IMG/VR virus record: IMGVR_UViG_3300033073_001657
Location: 29,419 to 93,418 of that record
DNA length: 64,000 nucleotides
Origin: a virus
Taxonomy: Duplodnaviria; Heunggongvirae; Uroviricota; Caudoviricetes
Direction: 5' to 3' (one strand)
Shown here: one piece after another, positions 1,615 to 32,933 of the stretch
Position numbering within the stretch: the first letter of the stretch is position 1
How the letters are laid out: every line of letters begins with the position of its first letter
The notes under the pieces: generated by a model
Told to the model about the DNA's origin: nothing
Database searches by the model: none
What the model saw: only the letters and a program-made list of their open reading frames with translations
Position numbers and translations under genes: made by a program

Positions 1615-3192
1615 ATGTTGTTAAAATTTAAGGTATCAAATGATAAGAAATTCATTAAACTTATAGACTCTACGTTAAATAGTGAAAAGTCAAGTCTATT
1701 TAAGTTTTTCAAACGTAAATCAAAAAAAGCAGCATTTAACGTTCTAGTCGATCGTGGAGTATGGGATGGACTTGACTCATTTATCACAAAAGACGGCAAT
1801 ATCGCGATCGGTTTATGGAAAGAGATTTACAATTTTGCCGATAAGTATGGATATGATTGTGAGATTGAAGGTGCTGAAACCTTTGTTAATAATAAGATCA
1901 GTCGAGAGCAGTACTTAAAGTATGTAGAGAAACTTCTTGATGGAATAGTCGATGAACGTGGTTTTCCAATCGTTCCTCGAGACTATCAAATTGAAGGAGC
2001 TTTTAGAGCAATCAAATACAAGTTCTGTACACAAGAATTGGCAACATCCGCCGGTAAAACTCTAATCTTTTTTATCTATAATTCATTCTTACGAGATGGA
2101 GGAAAGATCACAAAGGAGAAAAAATCATTGATAATCGTTCCAAATATTTCTCTAGTCGGTCAGACTGCTGAAAAATTCGAAATGTATGCTCAACCTGATC
2201 GAGAATGGAATGTATGTACGATTGGTGGAAAGGACAAGTTTACTCAAGAGAAGTTTGATGAAGCTGAAGTCGTGATTTCCACATATCAAAGCTTAATTAA
2301 CTTGCCAGTTCAACTATTTAGATCATTTGCGATAGTTCAAGTGGACGAAGTACATAAGTCTAAAGGTAATTCAATTCGAGAGATCCTTCTCTCTTGCGTC
2401 AACTGGGAATATCGTCTTGGTTTGTCAGGTACAGTTAAGTTAGATGAGCAATTTTCGGATTTTTTCAAAGTTCAGGAAAATGTTGGTCCATTAGTGATGG
2501 TTCTTTCAGCAAAACATCTAATCGATCATGGATATTCACCAAATATTAAGATCAAGATAGTCAAACTAAAATATGATGAGTCTGATCCAATGATTCAGAA
2601 ATACTGGCACCTTAAAGAGACCGGTAAAGAGATGTATAATAACCCCAAAGACTTTGGTCGTGATATGTTAGCCATCGAAAAAGGAATTATTTTTGATAGT
2701 AAAGAGAGACTTGACTTTATTAGCGACTTAGCTAAAAAATTCGGAAAAAACTCACTTATTCTCTTTTCAGACGTCAAAAACGGCTATGGAAAGATGATAC
2801 AGTCTAAACTATTGGAATGGAACCCAAATACTTTCTATATAGATGGCGAAGTCGACTCAAAGGAGCGCGATAGATTTAAAGATATACTGGAATCGCAAGA
2901 TGATGTGATTCTAGTCGCTTCGTTCGGTACTTTTGCTACTGGAATTGACTCTAAAAACTTACATCACATTATCTTAGCCGAATCAATAAAAGCTGAAGTC
3001 ACTTTACGTCAAGCAATAGGTCGAGGAATGAGAAAATTAGCGGAAAAGACAAAAGTCCTAGTTTGGGACCTAGTTGATCAATTGGATGGATATTCAATAC
3101 GACATGCTAAAGTACGAAAAGAGATCTATCGAGAGCAGAAATTTGAGACTTCTGAAAATGAAGTAGATTTAACAAAAAAGCGACTCAGTTGA
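1615..3192 (+). CDS. SF2 DEAD/DEAH-box helicase, UvsW-like
   Basis: DYQ motif, Walker A LATSAGKT (T4 UvsW has LPTSAGKS), Walker B DEVH, and the SAT-like LGLSGT motif. Confidence 0.7.
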   Translation: MLLKFKVSNDKKFIKLIDSTLNSEKSSLFKFFKRKSKKAAFNVLVDRGVWDGLDSFITKDGNIAIGLWKEIYNFADKYGYDCEIEGAETFVNNKISREQYLKYVEKLLDGIVDERGFPIVPRDYQIEGAFRAIKYKFCTQELATSAGKTLIFFIYNSFLRDGGKITKEKKSLIIVPNISLVGQTAEKFEMYAQPDREWNVCTIGGKDKFTQEKFDEAEVVISTYQSLINLPVQLFRSFAIVQVDEVHKSKGNSIREILLSCVNWEYRLGLSGTVKLDEQFSDFFKVQENVGPLVMVLSAKHLIDHGYSPNIKIKIVKLKYDESDPMIQKYWHLKETGKEMYNNPKDFGRDMLAIEKGIIFDSKERLDFISDLAKKFGKNSLILFSDVKNGYGKMIQSKLLEWNPNTFYIDGEVDSKERDRFKDILESQDDVILVASFGTFATGIDSKNLHHIILAESIKAEVTLRQAIGRGMRKLAEKTKVLVWDLVDQLDGYSIRHAKVRKEIYREQKFETSENEVDLTKKRLS

Positions 3193-4054: not shown

Positions 4055-4816
4055 TTATTTATTCAGTTTTTCAGAATTTTCTATTTTCTCAAAGACTTCT
4101 TCTAGTTTCATGATGATCGGGTGACGTACGATATCTTCTTTAGATAACTGCGCAATTCCGATCTCTTCAACCTCTACAAAATATTCAATTAGGATTTCAA
4201 GAGCACTCTTTTGTCCCTTATTCACCGATTTTTGTTTAATATCTCCTAAAAATACCATTTTAGAATCGCTTCCGATTCGAGTCAATAGAGTGTGTAGATG
4301 GTCTTTCGCTATCTGCTGAGCCTCGTCAATTAAGATGATAGCATTATCTAGAGTCACGCCTAATGCAAACTTAATTGGCAAGATCTCAATGTTTCCGCCA
4401 GCCTTAAGAGACTCAGTTGCCTGTTTTCCAATCACCTTATGAAAGTTCGAGATGAATGGATACATATACATCTCCATCTTCTCTTCTAATGTCCCTTTTA
4501 GATAACCTATCTCCTCATCTTTAGGTACGTTAACTGATTTTATTAAGATAATCTTTTTATAGGTCCCAGGATCATCTTTTAAATATTTCAGTGCTCTTGC
4601 ACAAGAAAGATAAGTCTTACCTGTTCCTGGAGGTCCAGTTATTATTGAAATATCGTGATTTTCAATAGCTGTTAGTGCATCCTTTTGGGCTTTTGACTTG
4701 CATTTTATCTCTATTTTATTATTAAACGCTTTTGCTGCAAGTAATGCTTCACGTTCTCTTTGCCAGGATTCTACATCTTCTAGTTCCTCTCTGCTTAGTT
4801 TTCTTTTTTGTGCCAT
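4055..4816 (-). CDS. phoH: PhoH-like ATPase
   Basis: Walker A GPPGTGKT, Walker B LIDEAQ, and VFLGDIKQ. This is the PhoH family common in marine and T4-like phages. Confidence 0.75.
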   Translation of the reverse strand: MAQKRKLSREELEDVESWQREREALLAAKAFNNKIEIKCKSKAQKDALTAIENHDISIITGPPGTGKTYLSCARALKYLKDDPGTYKKIILIKSVNVPKDEEIGYLKGTLEEKMEMYMYPFISNFHKVIGKQATESLKAGGNIEILPIKFALGVTLDNAIILIDEAQQIAKDHLHTLLTRIGSDSKMVFLGDIKQKSVNKGQKSALEILIEYFVEVEEIGIAQLSKEDIVRHPIIMKLEEVFEKIENSEKLNK

Positions 4817-4819
4817 AGG

Positions 4820-5452
4820 TTAATATATTTTAGCTGCGATCACGATCCCAAGTAGGATCTTTGTATAGTGGATTTGAAAATTAAGGAATGCCTGCACTGC
4901 TTTAAATTGTTTTTCTGAGAATTCAGTAGATTTTAGTGTAGCTTCACTTAATTTTTGCAAACCCAATTTTATTTTTGAGTTGAGAGCAGTGTCGTAAATC
5001 ATCAAGAATTCTGATACTAACTCGTTAAAGTCAATTCCTGTGATTGCGTCACAATTTAAAAGTTTTGAAAATTTTCTTCCTAATTTAATAGCTTTGATCT
5101 TTAGAATAAGGTCTTCGCTAGAGAGTGCCTCATCTAGTGTTTTACGAAGAGCGTCAATTTTCTTTATATGAATTGCCTCTTCAGCTATCCATTCAACGTC
5201 CCCTCTGTATAGTGCGATTGAGACGTCCGATCCTTCTTCAACATAGTAGAAGTTAAGGCTTTGTATCTTTCCAGTATCCCCAAACTCCTTCACTAAAATC
5301 GGCGAAACTCCAAGTTGTATAAAGTCTTCACCTCGTTCAATCATCAGTATGTCATAATCCCTAAATGGAAATTCTGCCATAAATGGAAGAACAGTTAATA
5401 GTTCCGAAGTTCTGTCTACCGTTCCATCTTGATCACGGTCATCCATACCCAA
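4820..5452 (-). CDS. hypothetical protein
   Basis: 210-aa ORF with a late-type box at 5461-5476 upstream. Confidence 0.5.
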   Translation of the reverse strand: MGMDDRDQDGTVDRTSELLTVLPFMAEFPFRDYDILMIERGEDFIQLGVSPILVKEFGDTGKIQSLNFYYVEEGSDVSIALYRGDVEWIAEEAIHIKKIDALRKTLDEALSSEDLILKIKAIKLGRKFSKLLNCDAITGIDFNELVSEFLMIYDTALNSKIKLGLQKLSEATLKSTEFSEKQFKAVQAFLNFQIHYTKILLGIVIAAKIY

Positions 5453-5564
5453 ACTTCTTTTTATTATTTATTCCAACTTTGTCAAATTAAGATTTAATGT
5501 CAATTAAAGATTTAGTATTTTAGTCAGGTCTGAAACTGTATTGTTCAGATAAGTATAACACTAT

Positions 5565-6998
5565 ATGGAAGATAAAGCGAAACACATCAAAAAACTCGAT
5601 CTTAAACAAAATGCGATAAAGATCTTAATTAACTCAATTTACGGTGCCTTTGGAAACAAGTGGTTCTATTTCTATAATCCAGACATTGCCCAATCTATTA
5701 CCCTACAAGGACAAGACTTGATCAAGTTTTCGATTAAAGCAGTAAACCACTATTTTTTAGAAAAGTGGCATACTGACACTGAACTTCATAAGTTATTAGG
5801 AATCGATGGTTACACAATCAATAAAATTGAGGATGAAGCCGCCATCTATACTGATACTGACTCGATCTATGTACAGTTTGACTCTGCTCTTGATTCAATA
5901 GTCGGTGCTGATTTTACAAAAGACGAAGCTTTAAATATCTGTATCAATATAGATCGATATCGACTTTCAAGTTATTTTGATATGTGCTTTGAGAAGTATG
6001 GAAGGCTCTTCAATACTAAAAATAGACTTAAATTCAAATTAGAGAACCTCTCTGAAACTGGTATCTGGCTTAAGAAAAAGAATTATGCTATTCGAGTAGC
6101 GTATGAGCCTAATCCAAATTATGAATTAGAACCTCAAGAAAAAAGATATTTGATCATCAAAGGATTAGAACCAGTCAAAGGATCCTATCCTATTTGGGCT
6201 AGAGATAAATTAATTGAATTGACCTCATTTATCATGGATAGAGGTAAAAAACTAGATATCGAAAAGGATATTATTCCTAGACTTACTGTCTTAAAAGAAG
6301 AAGCTATCTCACTGCATCCGGATGAACTCGCATTCAATTTCAATATCCGAATCTATAACAAGTATGTTGCTAGTGAAGAAAAGCTAGAACTTAGAAAAGG
6401 TATCTCAATTTTTCCTCGAGCTGCTGCGATTTACAATCACATCTTAATTAAAACTGGACTTACTGAAAAATATCCAAAGATCAGAGAAAAAGACAAGATC
6501 AAATTCTATTACTGTAATCCTGCAACTAATGAGGGTGGACATGACGTATTTGCATATTCTCCTGGGACTTATCCCGATGAGATAGCATTACTTATGGATA
6601 TCGATGCTCAGTTCTTTTCACTAATCGTCGAACCAGTAAATCGTCTTCTTACTGCAATGAAGATGAGTTCGCTAGACTCAAACCTAAAAAGAGCAGTTGA
6701 TGTAGTAACAGTAAAGAGCAAAAAGGTACTCACTGACGCTGATATATTTCCTCTCTATATAGTTGATCAAGAAACACTACAATACGTAGAAGTTCCAGAA
6801 AAATTCTGGAGAGTGATCGGTAATCCAGATGCAAATATTCCAGAAGAAGATTTTCAAGAATATTTAGGTGTGATTACACGATATGGATTAAATACTACAA
6901 TCGTTCCCAAACCTGAACTTGAAAAGTACCTAAAGAGAATGACTAAGAAGAAGGAAAAAGCTGAACCTGTTCTTGAATTAGAGGAAGAAAATGATTGA
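5565..6998 (+). CDS. family-B DNA polymerase, C-terminal (palm/thumb) fragment only, gp43B-like
   Basis: The ORF starts immediately before motif B KILINSIYGAFGN (T4 gp43 has KILINSLYGALGN) and also contains motif C YTDTDS (T4 has YGDTDS). There is no exonuclease or motif A region, and no partner ORF is adjacent. Confidence 0.8.
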   Translation: MEDKAKHIKKLDLKQNAIKILINSIYGAFGNKWFYFYNPDIAQSITLQGQDLIKFSIKAVNHYFLEKWHTDTELHKLLGIDGYTINKIEDEAAIYTDTDSIYVQFDSALDSIVGADFTKDEALNICINIDRYRLSSYFDMCFEKYGRLFNTKNRLKFKLENLSETGIWLKKKNYAIRVAYEPNPNYELEPQEKRYLIIKGLEPVKGSYPIWARDKLIELTSFIMDRGKKLDIEKDIIPRLTVLKEEAISLHPDELAFNFNIRIYNKYVASEEKLELRKGISIFPRAAAIYNHILIKTGLTEKYPKIREKDKIKFYYCNPATNEGGHDVFAYSPGTYPDEIALLMDIDAQFFSLIVEPVNRLLTAMKMSSLDSNLKRAVDVVTVKSKKVLTDADIFPLYIVDQETLQYVEVPEKFWRVIGNPDANIPEEDFQEYLGVITRYGLNTTIVPKPELEKYLKRMTKKKEKAEPVLELEEEND

Positions 6999-8124
6999 TC
7001 TATTGACTGGATATAACATACATCAGTTCATAAAGGATCTCTTAAAAAAGAGATTCCCAGAAGACCGATTTAAACAAGAAGTATATGAATCGGGCGATAA
7101 GATAAACTTTGCCTGTCCATACTGTGGCGATTCTAAATCTGACTCTAGAAAAAAGAGAGGAAACTTATACCCAGACCGAGGATTCTATAAATGCTACAAC
7201 GATGGTTGTGGAGTAAAATCAGATATCCCTAAATTTATTTCTAAGTTTGCACTCAAATATTCATTAGGAGTACCTGATGTCAAGCCCGAAGTCAATTGGG
7301 TTCCTCAAACTTCTAAAAAGAAGAGAGGGTCTTTAATTGAGCTACTCATCAACAAGAATGCAAGTGACCACCTCTTGAAAATAGAAGAAGTCGCTCGTAG
7401 ATTTTCATTGACTCCATGTAGCGAGATTGAGCCAGAAACTGAACTTGGAATATTCATAAAGAATCGAGCTCTTGACACTCTTCCTGCATTTCAAAAGTGT
7501 AGTTATTTTGATTCGAGAGAAGACAAGATATATCTCTTTAACCTAGACCAGAGGACAGGCAAGATCCTAGGCTTTGCAATACGTCGAATTGGAGAAGGAA
7601 TTAGTGGACCGAAATATCTAATTAAAAACTATTCTGAGTTAAAAAAGAACGGACTTGTTCGAAATGTTGAAGATGATATTATCACTGATATCGATTCAAT
7701 CAACAACTATTTTAACGTGCTAAATGTTGACTTTTCAAAGCCCATTCTAGTGACAGAAGGTCAGATTGACGCAATGTTCCTAAATAATTCAATTGCGACC
7801 ACTGGTATTTCCAAAAGTAAACTCCTATTGGAAAATCTATTAAGTAAATCAAATACTTTAATCCTATTCGATAGCGACATGGCAGGTAAGAATCAATCAG
7901 TTGATCTAATTAAGAAAGGTTATCGAGTGTTCCTATGGAATAAAGTAATGGCTGATCTTCGTAAAAAATACAATTCGGATTATCGAAATGTCCGACTAAT
8001 CAAAGATGTTAACGACCTATATTCTTTCATGTTGAAACATGATGCGTCTCTTACATTTGATTCCTTTAATGAATTTGTTCTACAATACTTTTCAGAATCT
8101 CCACTAGATTTGCTTTATGTGTAA
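6991..8124 (+). CDS. DNA primase (zinc ribbon + TOPRIM)
   Basis: Zinc ribbon CPYCGDS...CYNDGC, TOPRIM motifs LVTEGQIDAM and ILFDSD. The ORF overlaps the polB stop by 8 nt. Confidence 0.7.
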   Translation: MIDLLTGYNIHQFIKDLLKKRFPEDRFKQEVYESGDKINFACPYCGDSKSDSRKKRGNLYPDRGFYKCYNDGCGVKSDIPKFISKFALKYSLGVPDVKPEVNWVPQTSKKKRGSLIELLINKNASDHLLKIEEVARRFSLTPCSEIEPETELGIFIKNRALDTLPAFQKCSYFDSREDKIYLFNLDQRTGKILGFAIRRIGEGISGPKYLIKNYSELKKNGLVRNVEDDIITDIDSINNYFNVLNVDFSKPILVTEGQIDAMFLNNSIATTGISKSKLLLENLLSKSNTLILFDSDMAGKNQSVDLIKKGYRVFLWNKVMADLRKKYNSDYRNVRLIKDVNDLYSFMLKHDASLTFDSFNEFVLQYFSESPLDLLYV

Positions 8125-9674: not shown

Positions 9675-11393
9675 ATGGCAGGATTCTTAGATACCTCAGG
9701 AAGAAGAGTAAGTAGCGCTCTATCAAACTTAAGTAAGTTTGGTACAAGACACGAAGACCTTTTGCTTAAAAATTCACAAGCAATCGGTTTTATTGAAAGT
9801 CAGTTACAGTCTCGTACTTCTAGGCTAAACTCGAACGATGAACTTCTTAAGTTCTCAATGGCGATATCCGATACTACTTCTCAATTAAGAACTAAGGCGA
9901 TAGCTTTCTTTCAATTAGATTATGTAGTAAAAAGAGAGCGATTACGAGACGTTGCAGCCAATGGTGAAATCGAATTTATCCTTGAAACCATCGTCGACGA
10001 TATGATCGTTTATGACGATGAACAACGTTTTATCTATCCTAAAGACCTTACTGGTAAGATGCTTTATCGAGGAGATACAAAAGAAGAACGTTTGAATTTT
10101 CAAGAAAAAGTACTTAGAAAATATAACGATAACTTTGAAAGAATTTACACTGCTTGGGGATTCGCTGAAGGCATTTCTGCATGGCAATATGCATTTCAAT
10201 TCTTAGTAGAAGGACACCTCTCTTTTGAGATTATCTATGATGACTTAGAAAAACCTAAAGAAGTAATTGGATTTAAGGAACTTGATCCTGCTAGTATTGC
10301 TCCTCAATTACAGAAGGACTCTAAAGGTAAGATTTTTCTACAGTGGTTACAATACGATCAACAGACTGGTTCTACCAGAGTTCTTAATGATTCTCAAGTA
10401 ATCTATATCTCGTATGCTAATCACTTTAGAACAAAGAGAGTAAGTTTCGTTGAACGTCTAATTAGATCTTTTAACCTACTAAGAATCATCGAACACAGTA
10501 AAGTTATTTGGCACGTGATGAATGCGCCTATTCGTTTAACAACAACTGTTCCAATCGGAAGTAAGAGTTTTCAAAAGGGTCAAGAAGACGTTCGTGAATT
10601 CTTAAACATGTTCAAAGAAGACATCTATTTTAATGGTGATTCTGGAGAGCTAAACGTAGACGGTAAACCAAATATCCTATTTTATAAGAATTATATTTTA
10701 CCAGTTAATGACCAGAACCAACAAGTAAAAATTGAGACTCTGCAGACTCCTGGACCTAACTTGTCTGGGTCAGAACTATTGAACTATTTTTACAAAAAAT
10801 TGAAAATGGATTCAAAGATTCCTTATTCAAGATGGGAAGGTCAGTCTGGTATGGGTGCATTTACTCTTAATGCTGAAGGTATTACTCGTGAAGAGGTACG
10901 TTATCAAAAATTTGTCAATCGATTAAGATCGGCTTTTTCAGAGATGATGGTTAAACCATGGTATTTGCAAATGTGTTTAGACTTTCCCGATCTAGCCGAC
11001 GACTATAAGTTTAACAATGCAATAGGAATCAAATTCAATAATGATAACGTCTTTGAAGAGATGAAGAAAAATGAAATTGAAGCTAAGCGAATTGCTTCGT
11101 TCCAAGCTAAGAAAGGAGTAATGAAAGATGACGGTACTCCATTCTTCTCTACTGAATACTTAATTAGAGAAGAGCTTAAGATGACTGAATCTGAGATCCA
11201 AGCCAATCAGACTTGGTTCGATCAACACATAGATGAGGAAGAGGAAGCAGCGGCGGCACCTGCCGGAGCCGCTCCAGGAGCACAACCGGCACCAGGAGGC
11301 GGAGCACCGGCCGCTCCAGGCGGAGAGGCACCAGCTGAAGGAGGAAGTGAAGTAAAAGAAGGTGGAGAAACTTCTGGAGAAGGGCAACTTTAA
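9675..11393 (+). CDS. large structural protein, possibly portal
   Basis: 572 aa. The C-terminal tail is low-complexity and Ala/Pro/Gly/Glu-rich. The size and the position before the virion block fit a portal, but no motif was recognised. Confidence 0.3.
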   Translation: MAGFLDTSGRRVSSALSNLSKFGTRHEDLLLKNSQAIGFIESQLQSRTSRLNSNDELLKFSMAISDTTSQLRTKAIAFFQLDYVVKRERLRDVAANGEIEFILETIVDDMIVYDDEQRFIYPKDLTGKMLYRGDTKEERLNFQEKVLRKYNDNFERIYTAWGFAEGISAWQYAFQFLVEGHLSFEIIYDDLEKPKEVIGFKELDPASIAPQLQKDSKGKIFLQWLQYDQQTGSTRVLNDSQVIYISYANHFRTKRVSFVERLIRSFNLLRIIEHSKVIWHVMNAPIRLTTTVPIGSKSFQKGQEDVREFLNMFKEDIYFNGDSGELNVDGKPNILFYKNYILPVNDQNQQVKIETLQTPGPNLSGSELLNYFYKKLKMDSKIPYSRWEGQSGMGAFTLNAEGITREEVRYQKFVNRLRSAFSEMMVKPWYLQMCLDFPDLADDYKFNNAIGIKFNNDNVFEEMKKNEIEAKRIASFQAKKGVMKDDGTPFFSTEYLIREELKMTESEIQANQTWFDQHIDEEEEAAAAPAGAAPGAQPAPGGGAPAAPGGEAPAEGGSEVKEGGETSGEGQL

Positions 11394-11407
11394 TTTATAA
11401 GAACACT

Positions 11408-11433
11408 TGAGTATAATAACTAAAAATTATACT
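11408..11433 (+). promoter_or_regulatory. perfect 9-bp inverted repeat GAGTATAAT(aactaaaa)ATTATACTC abutting start codon of ORF 11435
   Basis: Seen directly in the sequence. The element combines the TATAAT-type and AACTAAAA boxes. Confidence 0.4.
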
Positions 11434-11434
11434 C

Positions 11435-11815
11435 ATGAAAGAAAAATTAACAAGTCTAACTGAGAGACTCATGATCCTTCCTGCTGAAATCTCAGATCTT
11501 CAAATTAAGGCTTTGTCATTAAATGATGGAATCCAATTAATCTCAGAAGAGATCGTTCAAAGAGAGTCTGAGATCAAGACAGAAATCAATTCTGCACTTG
11601 ACGAAAACGGTAAAAAGCTTTATTCTAATGATGAAGCAAGAAAAATTGCGTTTTTGACAGATTCAAAAGAAGATTCTATACTGTCTAAGTTGTATTCTGA
11701 GAAATCTGAACACTCTCACAAGTTAGATCTTATCAGAATCTCAATTGAGCAGCACTCGAATGAACAGAGAAATATACGATCTATCTTATCAGTGATTAAT
11801 TTGTTGGAAGATTAA
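11435..11815 (+). CDS. hypothetical coiled-coil protein
   Basis: 126-aa ORF. Confidence 0.5.
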   Translation: MKEKLTSLTERLMILPAEISDLQIKALSLNDGIQLISEEIVQRESEIKTEINSALDENGKKLYSNDEARKIAFLTDSKEDSILSKLYSEKSEHSHKLDLIRISIEQHSNEQRNIRSILSVINLLED

Positions 11816-12189
11816 TCGTAGAACATTGCAAACGAGTTCTTCGTTTCAGGTATGTCAATAAGAAGTACGAAAATGTCACGATTAGATTTATCATCTGGAT
11901 ATAGTGAAGGAGATACTGTGATCTGTCTTTTTCGTGCTTCTGCGACGTATTTATTGATCTGACCAGTAGCATCTTTACCTAGTCTACTCGGATCAATTGA
12001 ATATTCAAATAGGTAAGAATCTAAATCTATTCCAAAATCAGGTTCACCTAATACTTCTCCTTTTCGGGTAAAAAGAGTCATCTTAACCTGCTGAATAGCA
12101 GATTCTAATTCATCACTAATCTCAACACGGTCTCCTAAATATTTAGGATCCTCATTAGTTCGGGTATAAAAATCTCTAAGGCTTGCCAT
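11812..12189 (-). CDS. baseplate wedge protein, GpW/gp25-like
   Basis: 125 aa. The motif GEVLGEPDFGIDL is typical of the gp25/GpW family. Confidence 0.55.
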   Translation of the reverse strand: MASLRDFYTRTNEDPKYLGDRVEISDELESAIQQVKMTLFTRKGEVLGEPDFGIDLDSYLFEYSIDPSRLGKDATGQINKYVAEARKRQITVSPSLYPDDKSNRDIFVLLIDIPETKNSFAMFYD

Positions 12190-12191
12190 AA

Positions 12192-12926
12192 TTATTGTCT
12201 AGTTAAATACATCCAGTCTGGAGTGTTTTCTCCCTTCATCATCGTCTTAACGTCTTCCATCTCTTTTTCAGCAGTCGTTACGATATTCTGATAGTTTACC
12301 GTAACTCCTCCAGGAAGAGTATAATTAAATGTCTGAAGCATGTGAGCTAATCTCACCTTTGCATGAGCACGAACATATCTTTGAAACATCTCGTCCTCAA
12401 ATAATTTATCTTGATCAAGTTTTTTAAATACTCTAATCACTGCATTAGTTGCTGGTGTTCTACCAATAACTCCAAGTAACTTACTATTTTTATTATAGTC
12501 ATATGCGATAGTATCGATCATCATCGCTTTAGTCAAATCTAAGAATGAGAACATCACGGTTCTATACATAATACTCTCACCGATGAAAGGTGTTAAGAAT
12601 ATCTCAGCTCCAATAAATTTTTGTTCTGCGAAATCTCTATCAATGGTTCCGAAAATAGATCCTCCCTTAGCTTCTTTAAAGTCAACTACAAATTGAACAC
12701 AATCCGGTAATTGTATCTGACGAAGCTTTTTAAATGTTTCGTTTTGAAATAACTCTAACGGAAGCAATAAATATCTACTTTCTACTGCATGTCTCCAGTT
12801 ATCCCAAAAATATCTAGAATCATTCTCAATGATACGTTTCAATTCCTTTTCAGGAAGACCATATGGTAGAGCACCTGAGAAAGTAATCTCATCGTTTATA
12901 TCCTGTATTAACTCCTGTTCTGTCAT
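12192..12926 (-). CDS. hypothetical structural protein (baseplate-associated?)
   Basis: 244-aa ORF in an operon with the gp25-like ORF. Confidence 0.45.
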   Translation of the reverse strand: MTEQELIQDINDEITFSGALPYGLPEKELKRIIENDSRYFWDNWRHAVESRYLLLPLELFQNETFKKLRQIQLPDCVQFVVDFKEAKGGSIFGTIDRDFAEQKFIGAEIFLTPFIGESIMYRTVMFSFLDLTKAMMIDTIAYDYNKNSKLLGVIGRTPATNAVIRVFKKLDQDKLFEDEMFQRYVRAHAKVRLAHMLQTFNYTLPGGVTVNYQNIVTTAEKEMEDVKTMMKGENTPDWMYLTRQ

Positions 12927-12932
12927 GCTTCT

Positions 12933-13376
12933 TTATTGATTTGATCCGGTTCCTCCACCACGTTTATCACTAAATCTAACGCTAGACTTATCAATATCTA
13001 AGTTAAATTCTTTATCTCCCATCGATCTACCGATCGCTCTCTGATTCTTCTTAGCAATTACTGCATCCTGTTTACCAGCTCTTTCCATAGAGTTTTTCAT
13101 TACTTGATCTAGAGCTTGAGCTTTCATCTTTTTCTTCCAATCGCTGTGAAAGATCATATTCATTGCTCTAGTTATATCGACCTCTTGAACATGTCCATCA
13201 TAACGATTTGGGTTGCGTGCAGCTTTTTCATTAGCTAGTTCCCTAGCTATTGACATAATCGAAGTATAAAGTCCACCCAATGCACCTTGCACCATGCCTT
13301 TAAAATTAGTTGGGTACACCACTTCCTTAGTAGCTTCATTGATAAATTGATGATATGTTTTTATGTTTCTTTCCAT
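12933..13376 (-). CDS. internal/virion protein candidate with T4-like CTS (MERNIKTYHQFINE)
   Basis: The N-terminus closely matches the T4 internal protein III CTS MKTYQEFIAE. Confidence 0.6.
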   Translation of the reverse strand: MERNIKTYHQFINEATKEVVYPTNFKGMVQGALGGLYTSIMSIARELANEKAARNPNRYDGHVQEVDITRAMNMIFHSDWKKKMKAQALDQVMKNSMERAGKQDAVIAKKNQRAIGRSMGDKEFNLDIDKSSVRFSDKRGGGTGSNQ

Positions 13377-13705
13377 TATGCAGTAGGTGTAGCTGGGGCA
13401 GCAGGTTGTGCTGGAGCAGCTGGCTGATTTGCAGCAGCATTCTTTTGTGCAGCATTAGACTTAAGAACAGCTGCATCATACGCTTTTTGTAGATTCAAAA
13501 CTTTTGTATCTTGAGTAGCTTTTTGAGTGTTTATTTGAAGCTGTATTTCTTTTTCTTTCTGTAAAGCATTATATTGTGTTAAAAGAGCAGGATCAGTCGG
13601 TGCACCCTCTTCTTTAATCATTTGAGGATTTGCACCAGCTTCTACTTCTTGTGATGCTTTGTTTTCAGCATTTTGAAAGCTTTTAAAACTTTTTACGTAA
13701 GCCAT
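13376..13705 (-). CDS. internal/virion protein candidate with CTS (MAYVKSFKSFQNAE), Ala/Pro/Gln-rich
   Basis: 109 aa. A late box lies at 13715-13733. Confidence 0.55.
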   Translation of the reverse strand: MAYVKSFKSFQNAENKASQEVEAGANPQMIKEEGAPTDPALLTQYNALQKEKEIQLQINTQKATQDTKVLNLQKAYDAAVLKSNAAQKNAAANQPAAPAQPAAPATPTA

Positions 13706-13714
13706 TTTAATCTG

Positions 13715-13733
13715 CTTTTTTATTATTTATTTG
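13715..13733 (-). promoter_or_regulatory. late-type promoter box (AAATAAATAATAAAAAAG on - strand)
   Basis: Recurrent motif. Confidence 0.4.
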
Positions 13734-13998
13734 TAAATCGTTTTGATGTCTCGACAAACTCTTGATACGACAAAACTTTAACTTTTTTCTCCATCCTAGG
13801 ATTAGATCCGAATGCGCTACTCGCACTTCTTCCACCAAGGAACGGAGAATTATTCCATTGTGCTGGAACGGTCCCAGATGATCCCGAATAGAACATCATA
13901 GCATTTGCACGTTTAGTATCCGGCTCCATGATTCTTTCTGCTGGATCTGGTTCCATCATGATTGCACCAAAGCCCTCGACTAGTCTCATTAACCTCAT
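13723..13998 (-). CDS. hypothetical protein
   Basis: 91-aa ORF. Confidence 0.4.
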   Translation of the reverse strand: MRLMRLVEGFGAIMMEPDPAERIMEPDTKRANAMMFYSGSSGTVPAQWNNSPFLGGRSASSAFGSNPRMEKKVKVLSYQEFVETSKRFTNK

Positions 13999-13999
13999 A

Positions 14000-14461
14000 T
14001 TATCCTTGTGGAAAATCTAATTCTTCAGCTGGTTGGTCCAATGAAAATTCAGGAGCCTGTGGTTCCATTTGTTTTGAGAAATTAATATCAGTATCATCAC
14101 CTTCCATTTCAGTCTCTTCAGGAGCTTCTCCAGTAGTCTGATTAAGAATTTCTTCAGTATTTGAGTCAATGAATTGTTGTAGTCCCATACAGATAAGTGG
14201 GTTAATTGCATTACAACGATCGATTAATTCTCTTACCGTCAAGTTCATTACATCAGGTTGAGGCAATGCTTGTTGTTCTTGATCTGGGTTTTCCTGAAAA
14301 TCAAAATCTGGCATCATTTCCTCTGGTGATTGAACTGGTGCAGGTGGAGCCATTTGTGGCATAGATTGATCCATTTGTGGCATAGGTTGAGGGGCTGGCA
14401 TCTGTCCATTCATTGGTAACTGTTGAACATCATCAGCTTCATAAAGTCTCTTAATACGCAT
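14000..14461 (-). CDS. Pro/Gln/Met-rich acidic protein (scaffold- or internal-protein-like)
   Basis: 153 aa with N-terminus MRIKRLYEADD. A late box lies at 14484-14495. Confidence 0.5.
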   Translation of the reverse strand: MRIKRLYEADDVQQLPMNGQMPAPQPMPQMDQSMPQMAPPAPVQSPEEMMPDFDFQENPDQEQQALPQPDVMNLTVRELIDRCNAINPLICMGLQQFIDSNTEEILNQTTGEAPEETEMEGDDTDINFSKQMEPQAPEFSLDQPAEELDFPQG

Positions 14462-14529
14462 AATTTAAAGTTTATTTTATAGTGTTATTTATTTGGAAAC
14501 CGAATCGTCGTTTTAAGATATAATAAATC

Positions 14530-23915: not shown

Positions 23916-24809
23916 ATGTCTAAAATTAGCACACTCAATCTCGCATATCCTGAAAAATCAGATATTAAGTTCGAGAAAACAAAATTTCCTGACGGTCAAC
24001 AGTCAATTAAAATAACAAGTAATATTGCATCTGAAATAGCAATTAAAATCTACTCAAGATTTACTAGTTTTCAAGATCTAGAACTTATTCTTTGTGCAAC
24101 TGCCGCTCTTAAGAATTTGGGAATGACTGATATTTTTCTCTACATTCCATATTTCTTAGGTGGTCGTAGCGATCGTAAGTTTGAAGAGGGCTCAATCAAT
24201 TATATCAAAGATGTGGTTGCTCCAATTATTAATGCACAGCATTATAAAGGAGTCCTAGTCTTAGATCCTCACTCTGACGTTATCGAAGCGTGTATTGATC
24301 GACTGGATAAAATTGATAATTATAGCCTAGTTAAAGCGGCGCTTACTTCAATTGATAATACAAATGCTGCTCGAGAAAAAATGTGTATTATTTCGCCAGA
24401 CGCTGGAGCACTTAAGAAGATTTATGGTGTAGCTAAACATTTTGATATTAGAGATGTCTTAACTGCATCTAAAGTCCGAGATCTATCTACTGGTAAGATC
24501 CTGCATACGGAGATCCCGCAAATTCAAGGCACACAGCCTAAGAATTTTGTAATCATCGATGATATCTGTGATGGCGGTCGAACTTTTATTGAAGTAGCTA
24601 AAGCGATTCGTGAAAAACGTCCACATCCAATGTTTAGTGATAAGATCTACTTGATTGTCACCCATGGAATATTTTCAGGTGGACTACTTGAACTTTCTAG
24701 ACATTTTAGCGGAATCTATTCAACGAATAGTGTTAAGGATATTAAAGTTGATGAATATTCTGATTACACAGTAGATGATAGTTTTTTAACTCAATTCAAT
24801 ATATTTTAA
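23916..24809 (+). CDS. ribose-phosphate pyrophosphokinase homolog (Prs / ADPR-pyrophosphokinase Adps-like)
   Basis: FPDGQ aligns with FSDGE, IPYFLGGRSDRK with PYFGYARQDRK, and LDPH with DLH. The PRPP-binding loop VIIDDICDGGRT and the THGIFSGG motif are also present. Confidence 0.8.
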   Translation: MSKISTLNLAYPEKSDIKFEKTKFPDGQQSIKITSNIASEIAIKIYSRFTSFQDLELILCATAALKNLGMTDIFLYIPYFLGGRSDRKFEEGSINYIKDVVAPIINAQHYKGVLVLDPHSDVIEACIDRLDKIDNYSLVKAALTSIDNTNAAREKMCIISPDAGALKKIYGVAKHFDIRDVLTASKVRDLSTGKILHTEIPQIQGTQPKNFVIIDDICDGGRTFIEVAKAIREKRPHPMFSDKIYLIVTHGIFSGGLLELSRHFSGIYSTNSVKDIKVDEYSDYTVDDSFLTQFNIF

Positions 24810-24810
24810 T

Positions 24811-25284
24811 ATGGTAATCGTAAAACCTCCTCACCCAATCACTAAGGTTGGTGCAAATATCCAAGCAATATTTTTGGCTGGAAGCATTGAAATGGGTAGC
24901 GCGGAAGACTGGCAGGCCAAAGTAGAAAAGTTTTTTCGGTACTATCCTAAAGATGTTGTGATTCTTAATCCTCGTCGAGAAGACTGGGACTCTAGTTGGA
25001 CTCAAGAGTTTACTAATCCTCAGTTCTATCAACAAGTCAATTGGGAGCTCACTGCTCTTGATGCAGCTGATCTAATTATTATGTACTTTCATCCAGACAC
25101 GAAGGCTCCGATCTCATTATTAGAATTTGGAAAGTTTGCTGAGTCTGGTAAAATGATGGTGTGTTGCCCTACTGGATTTTGGAGAAAAGGTAACGTTGAT
25201 ATCGTGTGTGAACGATATGGAATCCCAAACTATGAGACACTAGACGAATTATTACAGGACATTCACAATAAAAACATAATATGA
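24811..25284 (+). CDS. nucleoside 2-deoxyribosyltransferase-like protein
   Basis: IFLAGSIEMG and LLEFGKFAESGK resemble the NDT-family motifs. Confidence 0.45.
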   Translation: MVIVKPPHPITKVGANIQAIFLAGSIEMGSAEDWQAKVEKFFRYYPKDVVILNPRREDWDSSWTQEFTNPQFYQQVNWELTALDAADLIIMYFHPDTKAPISLLEFGKFAESGKMMVCCPTGFWRKGNVDIVCERYGIPNYETLDELLQDIHNKNII

Positions 25285-28952: not shown

Positions 28953-30431
28953 ATGTTTAAGCCAATTTCGCTTTTTTACACCGATGGCTACAAGATCGGC
29001 CATCGTAAGATGTTATCTCCAGGAACAGATTTCCTTTATGGAACCTGGATTCCACGTAGCACAAAACATGCACCTAAGGGTATCACTAAAATCGTTTCTT
29101 TCGGTCAACAATTAGTTGTTCGATGGTTACATGACGAATTCGCTGAGAATTTCTTTAAACTTCCTAAAGACGAAGCTCTAAAGTTTGGTCAAGACATGTC
29201 GATGTATTTGGGTATGGAATTTGATGCATCACACTTTGCTGATCTTCATGATTTAGGTTACTTGCCTATTCGAATCAAGTCTCTACCTGAGGGAATTGAG
29301 ACTAGTCCAAATGTTCCTCACATGACATTCGTCAATACTGTCAATGGATTTGCATGGTTGACTCTTTATTTGGAGACAATCATCTCCTCTCTTGCATGGA
29401 AACCTGCGACATCAGCTACAATCGCTCTTCAGTACAAAAGAAACTTGGTGGAATGGGTAATGAAGACTGACCCTGCAAATGCTTGGTTAATTCCTTTCTT
29501 AGCTCACGACTTTAGCGCCAGAGGATTAAGCCCATGGGATATGTTATCTAGCGGACTTGGTCATGCTACCTCTTTTAGAGGCTCAGATTCAATCATCGTG
29601 ATTCCAGGAGCTCGATACTTCTATGGAGAACCAGAACATGAAGTTTGTATCAATTCAGTGAATGCTTCAGAGCACTCAGTGTCTACTACTTGTATCTTCA
29701 CGATGGGTGAATCGCAAATGTTAAAATACTTCATGGATCAGTTTCCTACTGGAATTCTTTCAGTTGTATCAGATACATTCGACCTATGGAAATTGATTAC
29801 TGAATACCTTCCTGAAAACAAGGAACAGATCATGTCACGTGATGGTAAATTAGTTATTCGTCCCGATTCTGGAAACCCAGTTGATATTCTTTGTGGATGG
29901 GGAGGGTTTGACCCTGAAGAGGAAAGTGAAGAAGCTAGAAACCAACCCCAAAATAAAGGAGTTATCGAATTACTTTGGGACATCTTCGGTGGAACCATCA
30001 ATGAACAGGGATTCAAAGTTCTAGATCCTCACATCGGTGCAATCTATGGAGATTCAATTACACTGGACCGTCAGATTCAAATCTATGAAAGATTGGCTGC
30101 AAAAGGATTCGCTGCAACAAATATCGTATTAGGTGTTGGATCATATACATATCAAATGAATACTCGAGACACTTTCGGATTTGCAGCTAAGGGTGCATGG
30201 TTTGAAGCAAATGGAGTAGGCTACGATATCTACAAAGATCCAATTACTGATGATGGAACTAAAAAGTCACTGAAAGGTCTGATCGCGGTAGATGAGGATC
30301 ATGTAGTACACACTCAATGTTCTTGGGAAGAGGAAGAGACTGGACTCTTACGTACTATTTATGAAGATGGAAAGTTCCTTAATGAGGACACTCTAACCCA
30401 GATTCGTGAACGATTAGACTCAGCAATATAA
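28953..30431 (+). CDS. nadV: nicotinamide phosphoribosyltransferase family (NAMPT/NadV; Namat-like)
   Basis: Motif-by-motif match to NAMPT: TDGYKIGH, LPIRIKSLPEGIE, LAHDFSARGLS, SVVSDTFDLW, LVIRPDSGNPVD and GVGYDIYKDPITD. Confidence 0.85.
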   Translation: MFKPISLFYTDGYKIGHRKMLSPGTDFLYGTWIPRSTKHAPKGITKIVSFGQQLVVRWLHDEFAENFFKLPKDEALKFGQDMSMYLGMEFDASHFADLHDLGYLPIRIKSLPEGIETSPNVPHMTFVNTVNGFAWLTLYLETIISSLAWKPATSATIALQYKRNLVEWVMKTDPANAWLIPFLAHDFSARGLSPWDMLSSGLGHATSFRGSDSIIVIPGARYFYGEPEHEVCINSVNASEHSVSTTCIFTMGESQMLKYFMDQFPTGILSVVSDTFDLWKLITEYLPENKEQIMSRDGKLVIRPDSGNPVDILCGWGGFDPEEESEEARNQPQNKGVIELLWDIFGGTINEQGFKVLDPHIGAIYGDSITLDRQIQIYERLAAKGFAATNIVLGVGSYTYQMNTRDTFGFAAKGAWFEANGVGYDIYKDPITDDGTKKSLKGLIAVDEDHVVHTQCSWEEEETGLLRTIYEDGKFLNEDTLTQIRERLDSAI

Positions 30432-31070: not shown

Positions 31071-32933
31071 ATGTTAGAAACAGTTTTAAATTATGCATGG
31101 ACGTTAATTCCATTTTTAGCTCTAGTGTTTTACAAATTCACATTAAGAGTATTTTTCGGTATGGTAATTATCCCAGAAGACAAGATCGGGTTAGTTACTA
31201 AAAAGTTTGTTCTCTTCGGAGCAAACCGCTCTCTACCTGATGGTAAAATCATTGCACTCAATGGTGAAGCCGGTTTCCAAGCAGACACTCTTGCTCCTGG
31301 TTTATATTGGGGCTTTTGGGTATGGCAGTATTCTATTGAACAGGCAAACTTAACGATCGTTGAAAAAGGTAAGATCGGTTTGATCTCAGCCAAGGACGGT
31401 GCTCAGCTTCCTACTGGTGCGATCTTAGCTCGACACGTAGAGTGTGATAATTTCCAAGATGCTCGTGCATTCTTAACAGGTGGAGGTCAACGTGGTAAGC
31501 AAGTAGGCTATTTAAACAATGGTGTGTATCGTATCAACCCACAGTTATTCGATATCTATGCTGCTGAAATTACTTATATCGAAGACGGACAGGTCGGAAT
31601 TATTACTGCACTTGATGGTGTTCCATTAGATCAAGGAAATATCGCTGGTAAGATGATCGAGGATCATAATAACTATCAAGATTTCGATAAGTTCTTGGAT
31701 CATGGGGGTCAACGTGGTCTACAGACACAAGTTATTCAAGCTGGTACATATACTCTAAGCCCATGGGCAGTACAAGTCGAAAAAGTACCAATGACTCAGA
31801 TTCCAATCGGTCATGTTGGAGTTGTTATCTCATTCGTTGGTGATGAAGGAGAGGATACTTCTGGAGATTCTTTTAAACACGGTAACATCGTGAAAAAAGG
31901 ACAAAAAGGTGTATGTATCACTCCATTAGATCCAGGTAAATACGCGATCAATCCATACACTCACAAGATCGAGGTGGTACCGACTACTAACTTGGTTCTT
32001 AACTGGGCGAATGCACGAAACGAGTCTCACCAGTTGGACAAAGGATTAAGTACAATCACAGTACGTTCTAAAGACGGTTTCCCATTCAACTTGGACGTAT
32101 CTCAAATCATCCATATCCCTGCAACTGAAGCGCCTAAAGTAATTGCACGATTCGGTTCAATGCAAAACTTGGTTTCTCAAGTATTAGAGCCGACTATCGG
32201 AAACTACTTCCGTAACTCTGCTCAAGACTCAGATGTGATCTCTTTCTTATCTACACGTCAAAAACGTCAGGATGCAGCTAAAGAGTCTATCTCTAAAGTA
32301 CTTGACGAATATAACGTACATGCAGTCGATACCTTAATTGGTGATATCACTCCACCTGCAGAATTGATGAAGACTCTTACTGATCGTAAGATTGCATCTG
32401 AAGAGGAGGTAACTTTCGAGACTCAACGTAAAGCTCAAGATCAACGTAAGACCTTAGAATCTGCAAAAGCATTGGCTGATATGCAAGGAAAAATGGTTGC
32501 TGCTCAACAGTCAGTAGAGATCTCACAACGTGAAGCTGAAGCTGCCGTTAAGAGATCTGAGGGTGAAGCTCAAGCGACTAAGTTGAAAGCTGGTGCTCAG
32601 GCTGAGGCTAAGAAAATGATGGCCGAAGCGGATGCTGCTCAAATCGAATTGACTGGTGCTGCTGAAGCAAGTAAGATCGAAGCGATCGGTAAGGCAACTG
32701 CTGAAGCGTATGACTTACAAGTTAAGGCAATGGGCGAGGACAACTTCGGTAAATTGAAAGTCACTGAGATGATCGGTACGAACGGCATCAAAATTATCCC
32801 AGAGATCCTGATCTCAGGTAATGATGGAGCCGGTTCAATCAATGGCTTACTTGGAATGGAAATGTTAAAACAAATCCAAGAGAAGAAAAAATCTGAAATT
32901 GCACCGACTAGTGTAACTCCTCCGACTGAGTAA
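31071..32933 (+). CDS. flotillin/SPFH(band-7)-like membrane protein
   Basis: N-terminal transmembrane helix and an internal duplicated GGQRG motif. The C-terminal coiled coil carries Ala/Glu-rich AEA repeats like the flotillin C-terminus. Confidence 0.4.
   Translation: MLETVLNYAWTLIPFLALVFYKFTLRVFFGMVIIPEDKIGLVTKKFVLFGANRSLPDGKIIALNGEAGFQADTLAPGLYWGFWVWQYSIEQANLTIVEKGKIGLISAKDGAQLPTGAILARHVECDNFQDARAFLTGGGQRGKQVGYLNNGVYRINPQLFDIYAAEITYIEDGQVGIITALDGVPLDQGNIAGKMIEDHNNYQDFDKFLDHGGQRGLQTQVIQAGTYTLSPWAVQVEKVPMTQIPIGHVGVVISFVGDEGEDTSGDSFKHGNIVKKGQKGVCITPLDPGKYAINPYTHKIEVVPTTNLVLNWANARNESHQLDKGLSTITVRSKDGFPFNLDVSQIIHIPATEAPKVIARFGSMQNLVSQVLEPTIGNYFRNSAQDSDVISFLSTRQKRQDAAKESISKVLDEYNVHAVDTLIGDITPPAELMKTLTDRKIASEEEVTFETQRKAQDQRKTLESAKALADMQGKMVAAQQSVEISQREAEAAVKRSEGEAQATKLKAGAQAEAKKMMAEADAAQIELTGAAEASKIEAIGKATAEAYDLQVKAMGEDNFGKLKVTEMIGTNGIKIIPEILISGNDGAGSINGLLGMEMLKQIQEKKKSEIAPTSVTPPTE

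What the first reader, a model, noticed from the sequence alone, without database searches (positions are those of the whole stretch)
5565..6998. Family-B DNA polymerase is split: only a gp43B-like C-terminal half is encoded here
The ORF starts a few residues before motif B KILINSIYGAFGN, which is almost identical to T4 gp43 KILINSLYGALGN. It carries motif C YTDTDS but has no exonuclease or motif A region. The gene immediately upstream is on the opposite strand, so the N-terminal half must be encoded elsewhere. It is not adjacent as in the Aeromonas phage 43A/43B splits. The gene is translationally coupled to the primase (8-nt overlap).
Basis: partly seen in the sequence, partly recalled or inferred. 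Interest (0 to 1): 0.6.

Follow-up and report, generated by a model that had tools for sequence, protein, structure and literature searches.

The report
Polymerase half-gene far from its partner
This T4-like phage window encodes only the back half of its replicative DNA polymerase as a separate, well-conserved gene, and the front half was not found in the 64-kb window or near this gene in about 85 related phage contigs, which extends a known kind of split polymerase to a much looser genome layout.

Summary
ORF 5565-6998 (+, 477 aa) is a gp43-type family-B polymerase fragment. It starts 18 residues before the motif-B lysine, carries motif C (YTDTDS), and lacks the exonuclease motifs and motif A. 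It is real and functional. The identical protein occurs on three independent assemblies, more than 120 homolog clusters keep the same length, dN/dS is 0.01-0.05, and an in-frame stop lies two codons before the ATG. The predicted fold matches RB69/T4 gp43 palm and thumb. The break lies at the fingertip, the known 43A/43B split site. The halves are not adjacent. A profile search found no N-half in the window, in 10 kb upstream of it, or within 10 kb of the gene in about 85 related loci. N-half-only genes are abundant in related phages, with gaps of about 1 kb to 16 kb, and about 221 kb on opposite strands in the complete Lak-A2 genome. I could not locate this clade's own N-half, so its existence elsewhere in the genome is inferred. 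The 8-nt overlap with the primase gene is confirmed and conserved. No intein or homing-endonuclease remnant is present at this junction. Verdict: a new variant of a known kind, of moderate interest.

The parts
5565..6998 (+). C-terminal subunit gene of a split family-B (gp43-type) DNA polymerase, 477 aa: fingers helix P with motif B, palm with motif C, thumb, and a C-terminal add-on domain
5619..5657 (+). Motif B KILINSIYGAFGN (residues 19-31); K19 aligns with RB69 K560
5847..5864 (+). Motif C YTDTDS (residues 95-100), the catalytic aspartates of the palm; this is the intein insertion site in some relatives
6690..6995 (+). Add-on specific to the long-type group (residues ~376-477): an ordered alpha/beta domain of about 90 residues plus an acidic tail. 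It replaces the short aromatic C-terminal tail seen in T4, Syn30 and the short-type C-halves
   Evidence: the fold search covers only ~365-390 columns
5453..5564 (.). Divergent intergenic region upstream of the C-half gene. An in-frame stop ends at 5558. There is no intein, homing-endonuclease or polB remnant, and no promoter-like site above background
6991..8124 (+). DNA primase gene (gp61-like, Toprim) overlapping the C-half stop codon by 8 nt. The overlap is conserved in relatives (4, 8 and 14 nt)
4820..5452 (-). Conserved 210-aa gene of unknown function, divergent from the C-half gene; it shows that no polB sequence abuts the start
4055..4816 (-). PhoH-like ATPase gene, part of the conserved neighbourhood
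1615..3192 (+). UvsW-type helicase gene. The order UvsW / C-half / primase / head-closure gene / portal is conserved down to 47-55% C-half identity

Best explanation
The ORF encodes the C-terminal subunit of a two-polypeptide T4-type replicative DNA polymerase. The enzyme is broken at the tip of the fingers domain, between helix N and helix P. This subunit supplies motif B (dNTP binding), motif C (two catalytic aspartates), the rest of the palm, and the thumb. A separate N-terminal subunit of about 460-520 aa must supply the N-terminal domain, the 3'-5' exonuclease, motif A and fingers helix N. It is encoded at a locus that is not linked to this one. After translation the two polypeptides are expected to assemble non-covalently, with the two antiparallel fingers helices packing against each other, as shown for the adjacent 43A/43B genes of Aeromonas phage 25. 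The C-subunit gene is co-transcribed with, and probably translationally coupled to, the primase gene. Shown here: the identity of the fragment, the split position, conservation and purifying selection, absence of the N-half nearby, and the existence of N-half-only genes at variable and sometimes very large distances in related phages. Inferred: that this genome has an N-half gene, that the two products assemble, and that the overlap causes coupling.
For: Fragment identity and split point. Met1 corresponds to about RB69 residue 542 and K19 to RB69 K560. Real and functional: the identical protein is on three assemblies; the 120 best-scoring homolog clusters listed are nearly all 470-480 aa, apart from intein-bearing or contig-truncated forms; invariant columns include the motif B and C residues; dN/dS is 0.01-0.05 with near-saturated synonymous sites and no internal stops. 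No N-half nearby: the window; 10 kb upstream of the window; 54 clade loci; 29 more long-type loci; P0121 and P0122 contexts. The partner type exists: 80 of 80 N-half loci encode N-half-only ORFs ending at the fingertip, and 2,227 to 2,375 proteins score as N-half relatives, with nearly all of the listed ones 457-498 aa. Both halves placed on one contig or genome in other lineages: 3.6-5.1 kb apart, 13.5 kb, 14.7 and 15.9 kb, about 221 kb on opposite strands in the complete Lak-A2 genome, and 2.4 kb in cultured phage PAU. In the model, residues 1-49 (helix P) have pLDDT below 50 while the rest is confident, as expected for a helix that needs a partner. Phage 25 43A and 43B co-purify and are active (PMC2988022), and a split at the Pfu fingertip keeps full activity (PMC3061061).
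Against: The N-half of this clade was never found. Eight viral-collection scans, one metagenome scan and two N-half protein searches failed to place an N-half on any contig known to carry a long-type C-half. Still, it leaves the central inference untested. Only about 74 kb of a genome of roughly 250 kb was visible. Assembly and activity of the two subunits are untested for this group.
Confidence: 0.8

Rival explanations
1. The N-half is not truly relocated. It lies farther upstream on the same strand (more than 15.5 kb), as part of a stretched but still colinear replication and nucleotide-metabolism module, as in lineages where nrdB, nrdA and other genes have accumulated between the halves.
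For: The gap grows in steps across lineages and stays on the same strand: about 1 kb, 2.4 kb, 3.6-5.1 kb, 13.5 kb, 14.7-15.9 kb. The window has no nrdA or nrdB, and these genes follow the N-half in three lineages.
Against: In the window group, UvsW sits 2-3 kb upstream of the C-half, and the next 12 kb upstream contains mostly opposite-strand genes of 500-650 aa with no Pfam match. In the L092 lineage the N-half lies between UvsW and the C-half, so here it has been removed from that interval rather than pushed away. Lak-A2 shows that full unlinking with strand inversion does occur.
Confidence: 0.25
2. The ORF is a decaying remnant or a duplicate, and a full-length polB elsewhere in the genome does the replication.
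For: Most of the genome is outside the window, so a full-length gene cannot be excluded directly.
Against: dN/dS is 0.01-0.05 and no relative has a stop. The length is conserved in over 120 clusters down to 57% identity and in the 47-55% relatives. The catalytic motifs are invariant. The arrangement with the primase is conserved. In the exhaustive search most of the nearest relatives are also half-length and only a few are full-length, at 38% identity or less.
Confidence: 0.03
3. The two halves are joined covalently by protein trans-splicing through a split intein, as in cyanobacterial DnaE or Nanoarchaeum PolB.
For: Inteins are active in this gene family. Relatives carry a mini-intein or a split intein at motif C, and phage MIJ3 has a split intein in PolB (PMC6892783).
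Against: The window ORF has only 18 residues before motif B, which leaves no room for an intein C-fragment of about 35-45 residues. There is no ...HN + Ser/Thr/Cys junction at its N-terminus. The N-half-only proteins of related lineages end in helix N with no intein N-fragment. Pfam finds only DNA_pol_B.
Confidence: 0.02
4. The clade has lost the canonical N-half. The C-half works with a non-homologous partner, such as a separate exonuclease or another polymerase, or has taken on another role at the fork together with the primase.
For: Every attempt to find the N-half failed. The C-half has gained a C-terminal domain of about 100 residues and is tightly coupled to the primase.
Against: Motif A, which supplies a catalytic aspartate, is indispensable for family-B catalysis (established knowledge of the family), while motifs B and C here are under strict conservation. 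Every related lineage examined keeps an N-half-only gene. The failure to find one here has plausible technical causes.
Confidence: 0.05

Closest known systems
Bicistronic gp43 (43A/43B) of T4-related phages 25, 31, 44RR, 65 and Acinetobacter phage 133 (Petrov et al. 2006 J Mol Biol 361:46; 2010 J Mol Biol 395:457; summarised in PMC3061061 and PMC2988022)
   Same: The same enzyme family and the same break site at the fingertip, between helices N and P. The C-fragment starts shortly before motif B, and there are two separate polypeptides with no intein. In phage 25 the two products co-purify and are active.
   Different: In those phages the two cistrons are 2 bp to 3 kb apart, on the same strand and in N-to-C order. 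Here no N-half lies within 15.5 kb upstream or 57 kb downstream, and none within 10 kb in about 85 relatives. The lead before motif B is shorter (18 against 46 residues in phage 25). The C-half carries an extra C-terminal domain of about 100 residues and overlaps the primase gene.
Split PolB of Methanothermobacter thermautotrophicus (Kelman et al. 1999, cited in PMC3061061)
   Same: A family-B polymerase made from two genes far apart in the genome (85 kb), assembling without splicing.
   Different: It is archaeal and cellular. The break is in the palm domain, about 83 residues C-terminal to the fingertip site, so it is an independent event.
Prevotella megaphage Lak-A2 (MK250019.1) PolB, as found here
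   Same: An N-half-only ORF and a C-half at unlinked loci in a complete phage genome, with the break at the fingertip.
   Different: The C-half is only about 33% identical. The halves are about 221 kb apart on opposite strands. The Lak C-half is itself broken at motif C into two adjacent ORFs. The arrangement is not mentioned in the Lak paper.
Fractured genes with split inteins (Dassa et al. 2009, PMC2677866); MIJ3 PolB split intein (PMC6892783)
   Same: Close relatives of the window phage (L025, L028) have this arrangement at motif C of the same gene: N-extein plus intein N-fragment, a free-standing ORF, then intein C-fragment plus C-extein.
   Different: The window gene has no intein, and the fingertip break has no intein signature at all.

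Membership tests
Family-B DNA polymerase, T4 gp43 type (Pfam PF00136 / PF03104) | Motif B (KxxxNSxYG) in fingers helix P | tested here: met
   KILINSIYGAFGN at residues 19-31; aligned with T4 and RB69
Family-B DNA polymerase, T4 gp43 type (Pfam PF00136 / PF03104) | Motif C (YxDTDS) catalytic aspartates | tested here: met
   YTDTDS at residues 95-100; Y95, D97, T98, D99 and S100 are invariant and T96 is at least 90% conserved in 26 homologs
Family-B DNA polymerase, T4 gp43 type (Pfam PF00136 / PF03104) | Motif A (DxxSLYPS) and Exo I-III on the same polypeptide | tested here: not met
   Absent from the ORF and from the whole window. The ORF is therefore a fragment or subunit of the family, not a complete member
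Family-B DNA polymerase, T4 gp43 type (Pfam PF00136 / PF03104) | Palm and thumb fold | tested here: met
   AlphaFold model with pLDDT 79.8 and pTM 0.76. The top Foldseek hits are RB69 and T4 gp43, probability 1.0, 365-390 aligned columns
Fingertip-split gp43 (43A/43B) of T4-related phages | Break between fingers helices N and P | tested here: met
   Met1 lies 18 residues before the motif-B lysine, at about RB69 residue 542. Phage 25 43A ends and 43B starts in the same inter-helix segment
Fingertip-split gp43 (43A/43B) of T4-related phages | A separate N-terminal cistron in the same genome | tested here: inconclusive
   Not in the window, nor in the 10 kb upstream of the window start (L057). 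Related lineages all have one
Fingertip-split gp43 (43A/43B) of T4-related phages | The two cistrons adjacent (2 bp to 3 kb), same strand | tested here: not met
   No N-half within 10 kb in about 85 long-type loci, nor in the window
Fingertip-split gp43 (43A/43B) of T4-related phages | The two polypeptides assemble into an active polymerase | not testable with these tools
   Needs biochemistry. Shown only for phage 25 (PMC2988022)
Split-intein fractured gene | Intein C-fragment (blocks F and G, ...HN) followed by a nucleophile at the start of the C-terminal gene | tested here: not met
   The window ORF has no such segment. Relatives P0061, L025 and L028 have it at motif C, not at the fingertip

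The most novel reading that the evidence does not exclude
A large, so far uncultured group of T4-like phages, including genomes of about 250-270 kb, builds its replicative polymerase from two genes that have become genetically unlinked. The catalytic-core/thumb subunit is expressed together with the primase, and the exonuclease/motif-A subunit is expressed from another module, possibly with ribonucleotide reductase genes as in sister lineages. The two halves could then be regulated separately and exchanged by recombination. The added C-terminal domain of about 100 residues may be an adaptation that stabilises the heterodimer or rewires the contacts with the clamp or the primase.
Probability: 0.45. 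Interest if true: 0.6.

Novelty: new variant of a known kind. Interest (0 to 1): 0.45.

Why it matters
Fingertip-split gp43 has been treated as a curiosity of a few Aeromonas and Acinetobacter phages with adjacent cistrons. The data here show two things. First, half-length polymerase genes are the majority form among the nearest relatives found in a library of 1.84 billion proteins. Second, the distance between the halves ranges from a few bases to hundreds of kilobases. This affects annotation, because half-genes are routinely labelled 'DNA polymerase' or 'hypothetical'. It affects the use of polB as a phylogenetic marker in viromics. It also offers a natural series for studying how a replicative polymerase tolerates being split and how two unlinked subunits are kept in balance. 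The conserved overlap with the primase gene suggests a testable link between the amounts of polymerase C-subunit and primase.

Tried and rejected
Attempts to find the clade's N-half, all negative:
- tblastn with Syn30 gp43 and an 11-sequence N-half HMM against the window and all loci held.
- Extension of both window ends. This gave 10 kb upstream; downstream only a 1.9-kb contig was available.
- Two natural N-halves as probes. Both turned out to belong to lineages with a linked short C-half.
No hit contig matched a long-type C-half contig by name or by length, and no flanking gene matched the clade at high identity.
- Protein searches with the N part of the closest unsplit relative P0201 and with a family consensus. 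No longest-contig value coincided with the C-half list.
- Size coincidences (131,465 against 131,445 bp; 270,756 against about 271,000 bp; 264 against 266 kb), which proved to be different phages.
- GenBank LR796916.1, which is not in the local collections.

Also rejected: an upstream in-frame extension (a stop lies two codons before the ATG); a homing-endonuclease remnant in the 210-aa upstream ORF (no Pfam or PHROG hit); the 498-, 505- and 727-aa unannotated ORFs as divergent N-halves (no Pfam, PHROG or HMM signal); and a sigma-70 promoter in the intergenic region (none above background).

Full report
**1. What is in the sequence**

ORF 5565-6998 (+) encodes 477 aa from an ATG. Pfam matches DNA_pol_B only over profile positions 146-238 of 453. 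Motif B (KILINSIYGAFGN, residues 19-31) and motif C (YTDTDS, residues 95-100) are present. Exo I-III and motif A are not.

Full-length gp43 of cyanophage Syn30 aligns to the window only over its residues 485-828. A profile HMM built from 11 N-terminal halves and run without speed filters found nothing in the six-frame translation of the window (best E 9.4).

The gene just upstream (4820-5452) is on the other strand. An in-frame stop lies two codons before the ATG, with no alternative start codon. The stop codon overlaps the start of the next gene by 8 nt (ATGATTGA). That gene is a DNA primase (PHROG 47, E 1e-22; weak Toprim hit in Pfam).

**2. The gene is real and under selection**

- The identical protein, with the same neighbours, is on three independently assembled contigs from three samples. 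One of them is a 98.2%-identical strain variant.
- A search of 5.8 billion protein clusters returned 495 hits at E <= 1e-10. The best 120 (57-94% identity) are almost all 470-480 aa. The exceptions carry an intein or are cut by contig ends.
- Against five relatives at 89-93% protein identity, synonymous sites are close to saturation (pS 0.62-0.75) while pN is 0.05-0.07. This gives dN/dS of 0.01-0.05, and no relative has a stop.
- In an alignment of 26 homologs, Y95, D97, T98, D99 and S100 of motif C and most of motif B are invariant.
- An AlphaFold model built on that alignment has mean pLDDT 79.8 and pTM 0.76. Its best structural matches are RB69 and T4 gp43, at probability 1.0 over 365-390 aligned columns.
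- A profile search of PDB sequences aligns residues 16-259 to RB69 residues 557-783.

**3. Where the break is**

In a multiple alignment with T4, Syn30, eight full-length relatives and phage 25 43A/43B, Met1 lies 18 residues before the motif-B lysine. K19 corresponds to RB69 K560, so Met1 is at about RB69 residue 542. This is the variable fingertip between fingers helices N and P. It is the segment in which the natural splits of T4-related phages 25, 31, 44RR, 65 and 133 fall (Petrov 2006 and 2010, as summarised in PMC3061061).

Phage 25 gp43B starts 46 residues before the same lysine, and gp43A ends in the same inter-helix segment. In the model, residues 1-49, which are helix P with motif B, have pLDDT below 50, while residues 50-467 are confident. 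That is what one expects of a helix that normally packs against a partner helix from another chain.

**4. The halves are not adjacent, and this is the rule for the group**

No N-half signal was found in any of the following:
- the window, which covers 5.5 kb upstream and 57 kb downstream of the gene;
- L057, which adds 10 kb upstream of the window;
- 54 loci of relatives at 51-100% identity, each with up to 10 kb on both sides;
- 29 further loci of the same long type, 50-77% identical;
- the contexts of P0121 (48%) and P0122 (47%).

The gene order UvsW / C-half / primase / head-closure gene / portal is kept in relatives with only 47-55% C-half identity. So are the stop/start overlaps with the primase: 4 nt in L236, 8 nt in L616 and 14 nt in L499. 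Contigs of this group reach 250-275 kb, and two independent contigs of 270,962 and 271,160 bp suggest complete genomes of that size.

**5. The wider picture**

An exhaustive search of 1.84 billion representatives gave 2,484 hits. Among the best 150, down to about 30% identity, most are C-half-only proteins of 370-600 aa that begin 20-45 residues before motif B. Only a handful are full-length.

The counterpart holds for the N-half. All 80 loci recovered with an N-half alignment encode N-half-only ORFs of 460-530 aa that end at the fingertip. Two N-half protein searches each gave more than 2,200 hits, and nearly all listed ones are 457-498 aa.

Where both halves could be placed, the gap varies widely:

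| Lineage | Gap between halves | Strand |
|---|---|---|
| Phage 25 (homing endonuclease in the gap) | about 0.85 kb | same |
| L101, L156 | about 0.9-1.1 kb | same |
| Cultured Sphingomonas phage PAU (gp105 / gp110) | 2.4 kb | same |
| Two abundant lineages (about 70 loci with a placed C-half) | 3.6-5.1 kb | same |
| L555 (nrdB, nrdA, a kinase and topoisomerase-like genes between) | about 13.5 kb | same |
| L366/L446 and L371/L466 | 14.7 and 15.9 kb | same |
| Complete circular Lak-A2 genome | about 221 kb | opposite |

In Lak-A2 the C-half is itself broken at motif C into two adjacent ORFs. The Lak paper does not mention the polymerase. A survey of jumbo phages calls the group-2 PolB 'classic' and reports distantly encoded halves only for a Pol III alpha-like protein (PMC7824862). 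I found no paper describing unlinked fingertip halves in phages, within the limits of the library searched.

**6. What I could not show**

I did not find the N-half of the window's own group. The list of attempts is under 'tried and rejected'. Likely technical reasons are these:
- The collection scans stop at 120 or 600 rows and were saturated by abundant lineages.
- Motif A varies. The closest unsplit relative, P0201, has DFASLYPN, and the scan for that variant recovered lineages that pair with short-type C-halves.
- Protein searches list only the best 120 of more than 2,000 hits.
- The public record most likely to settle the matter, LR796916.1 (250,308 bp, with a C-half 88% identical at about 139-140.6 kb), is not in the local collections.

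The statement that the N-half is encoded elsewhere in this genome therefore rests on three things. Motif A is required for family-B catalysis. Motifs B and C here are under strong purifying selection. And every related lineage examined keeps an N-half-only gene.

**7. Mechanism**

The most likely reading is a heterodimeric polymerase that is rebuilt after translation by packing of helix N (the end of the N-subunit) against helix P (the start of this protein). This is what happens in phage 25, where 43A and 43B co-purify and are active (PMC2988022). A Pfu polymerase split at the fingertip also behaves like the wild type (PMC3061061).

Trans-splicing is very unlikely. There is no room for an intein C-fragment before motif B, and the related N-half proteins end in helix N without an intein N-fragment.

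The overlap with the primase gene is conserved. This points to co-transcription and probably to translational coupling, which is an inference. The long-type C-half carries an ordered add-on of about 90 residues and an acidic tail, where T4, Syn30 and the short-type C-halves end in a short aromatic tail. Its role is unknown. Stabilising the heterodimer or changing the contacts with the clamp or the primase are hypotheses only.

**8.

Nothing of the kind is present at the fingertip junction in the window. The upstream 210-aa ORF has no Pfam or PHROG match and is conserved in relatives.

Inteins are active elsewhere in the same gene. P0043 and P0108 have a mini-intein at motif C (YTDTD|S...VHN|SIYV). 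Relatives L025 and L028, 87-89% identical over the matched part, have the 'fractured gene' layout at that site: 220 aa (exteins 1 to ~98 plus intein N-fragment), a free-standing ORF of 385-392 aa, then 424-425 aa (intein C-fragment plus the rest). In those phages the polymerase is encoded in three genes.

**9. Verdict**

The thing is a known kind, the fingertip-split gp43, in a new variant. The halves are unlinked in the genome, across a large uncultured group that includes genomes of about 250-270 kb, and the C-half has an added C-terminal domain and a conserved overlap with the primase gene. Interest is moderate. The main gap is the unlocated N-half, which one tblastn run on a public 250-kb record would close.

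Noticed in passing
L025 8042-11140 and L028 8032-11143 (relatives 87-89% identical to the window protein over the matched part); proteins P0061, P0043, P0108, P0237: The C-half gene is itself fractured at motif C by a split intein with a free-standing ORF of 385-392 aa between the two pieces. Other relatives carry a contiguous mini-intein at the same site, and P0237 carries two inteins. In these phages the polymerase is encoded in three genes.
   Followed up: partly
Lak-A2 MK250019.1: about 122,980-124,503 (-) and 345,466-347,615 (+) (loci L505, L506): The complete circular megaphage genome has an N-half-only polB ORF and a C-half about 221 kb apart on opposite strands. The C-half is broken again at motif C into ORFs of 273 and 329 aa. 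The Lak paper does not mention this.
   Followed up: partly
Loci L140-L235 and L377-L410; Sphingomonas phage PAU NC_019521 83,441-88,543: Two abundant IMG/VR lineages (one with at least 308 confirmed stretches in IMG/VR) have polB halves 3.6-5.1 kb apart on the same strand. Cultured phage PAU has gp105 (N-half) and gp110 (C-half) 2.4 kb apart with a dUTPase gene in between.
   Followed up: yes
window 6690-6995 (residues ~376-477 of the C-half): An ordered C-terminal add-on domain (pLDDT about 86-92) plus an acidic tail, conserved in the long-type group. The short aromatic C-terminal tail of T4, Syn30 and the short-type C-halves is missing. The function is unknown.
   Followed up: partly
L496 10001-17863; L503 10001-14911; L555 about 10,475-14,488: In three N-half-only lineages the N-half gene is followed directly by nrdB and nrdA. 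In L496, nrdA is itself split into 397 aa with a Hint domain, a DUF723 ORF, and 500 aa. The window has no nrdA or nrdB.
   Followed up: partly
window 49560-50309 (-); loci L515, L532, L535, L544, L551, L552, L560, L584, L586, L594, L601: The window's M28-peptidase ORF has homologs about 55% identical that sit next to the N-half gene in 11 metagenomic 'SLYPN'-type loci. In the window the equivalent neighbourhood holds unannotated ORFs of 130 and 727 aa and a clamp-loader-like AAA gene instead.
   Followed up: partly
window 23916-25284 and 28953-30431; L057 11084-12958: A set of nucleotide and NAD salvage genes: a phosphoribosyltransferase, a nucleoside deoxyribosyltransferase-like ORF (53% identical to an ORF in L503 that carries the Nuc_deoxyri_tr2 Pfam hit), an NAPRTase-family protein, and, upstream of the window, a 624-aa protein with a faint cytidylyltransferase-like match.
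   Followed up: no
window 31071-32933 (+), 44979-45665 (-), 41142-41669 (+): A 620-aa protein with an SPFH/Band 7 domain, a papain-like cysteine protease and an SLT transglycosylase. The first two are unusual cargo for a T4-like phage.
   Followed up: no
L499 (JGI Ga0502761_0000038, 265,902 bp; C-half P0068, 72% identical): This relative's locus has GC 0.547 against 0.37 for the window. Other members go down to 0.29, so the group spans a very wide GC range and presumably very different hosts.
   Followed up: no
window 45667-47163 (-), 47531-49048 (+), 50751-52934 (-): Three large ORFs (498, 505 and 727 aa) have no Pfam or PHROG match at all. They are not divergent polymerase halves by HMM.
   Followed up: partly
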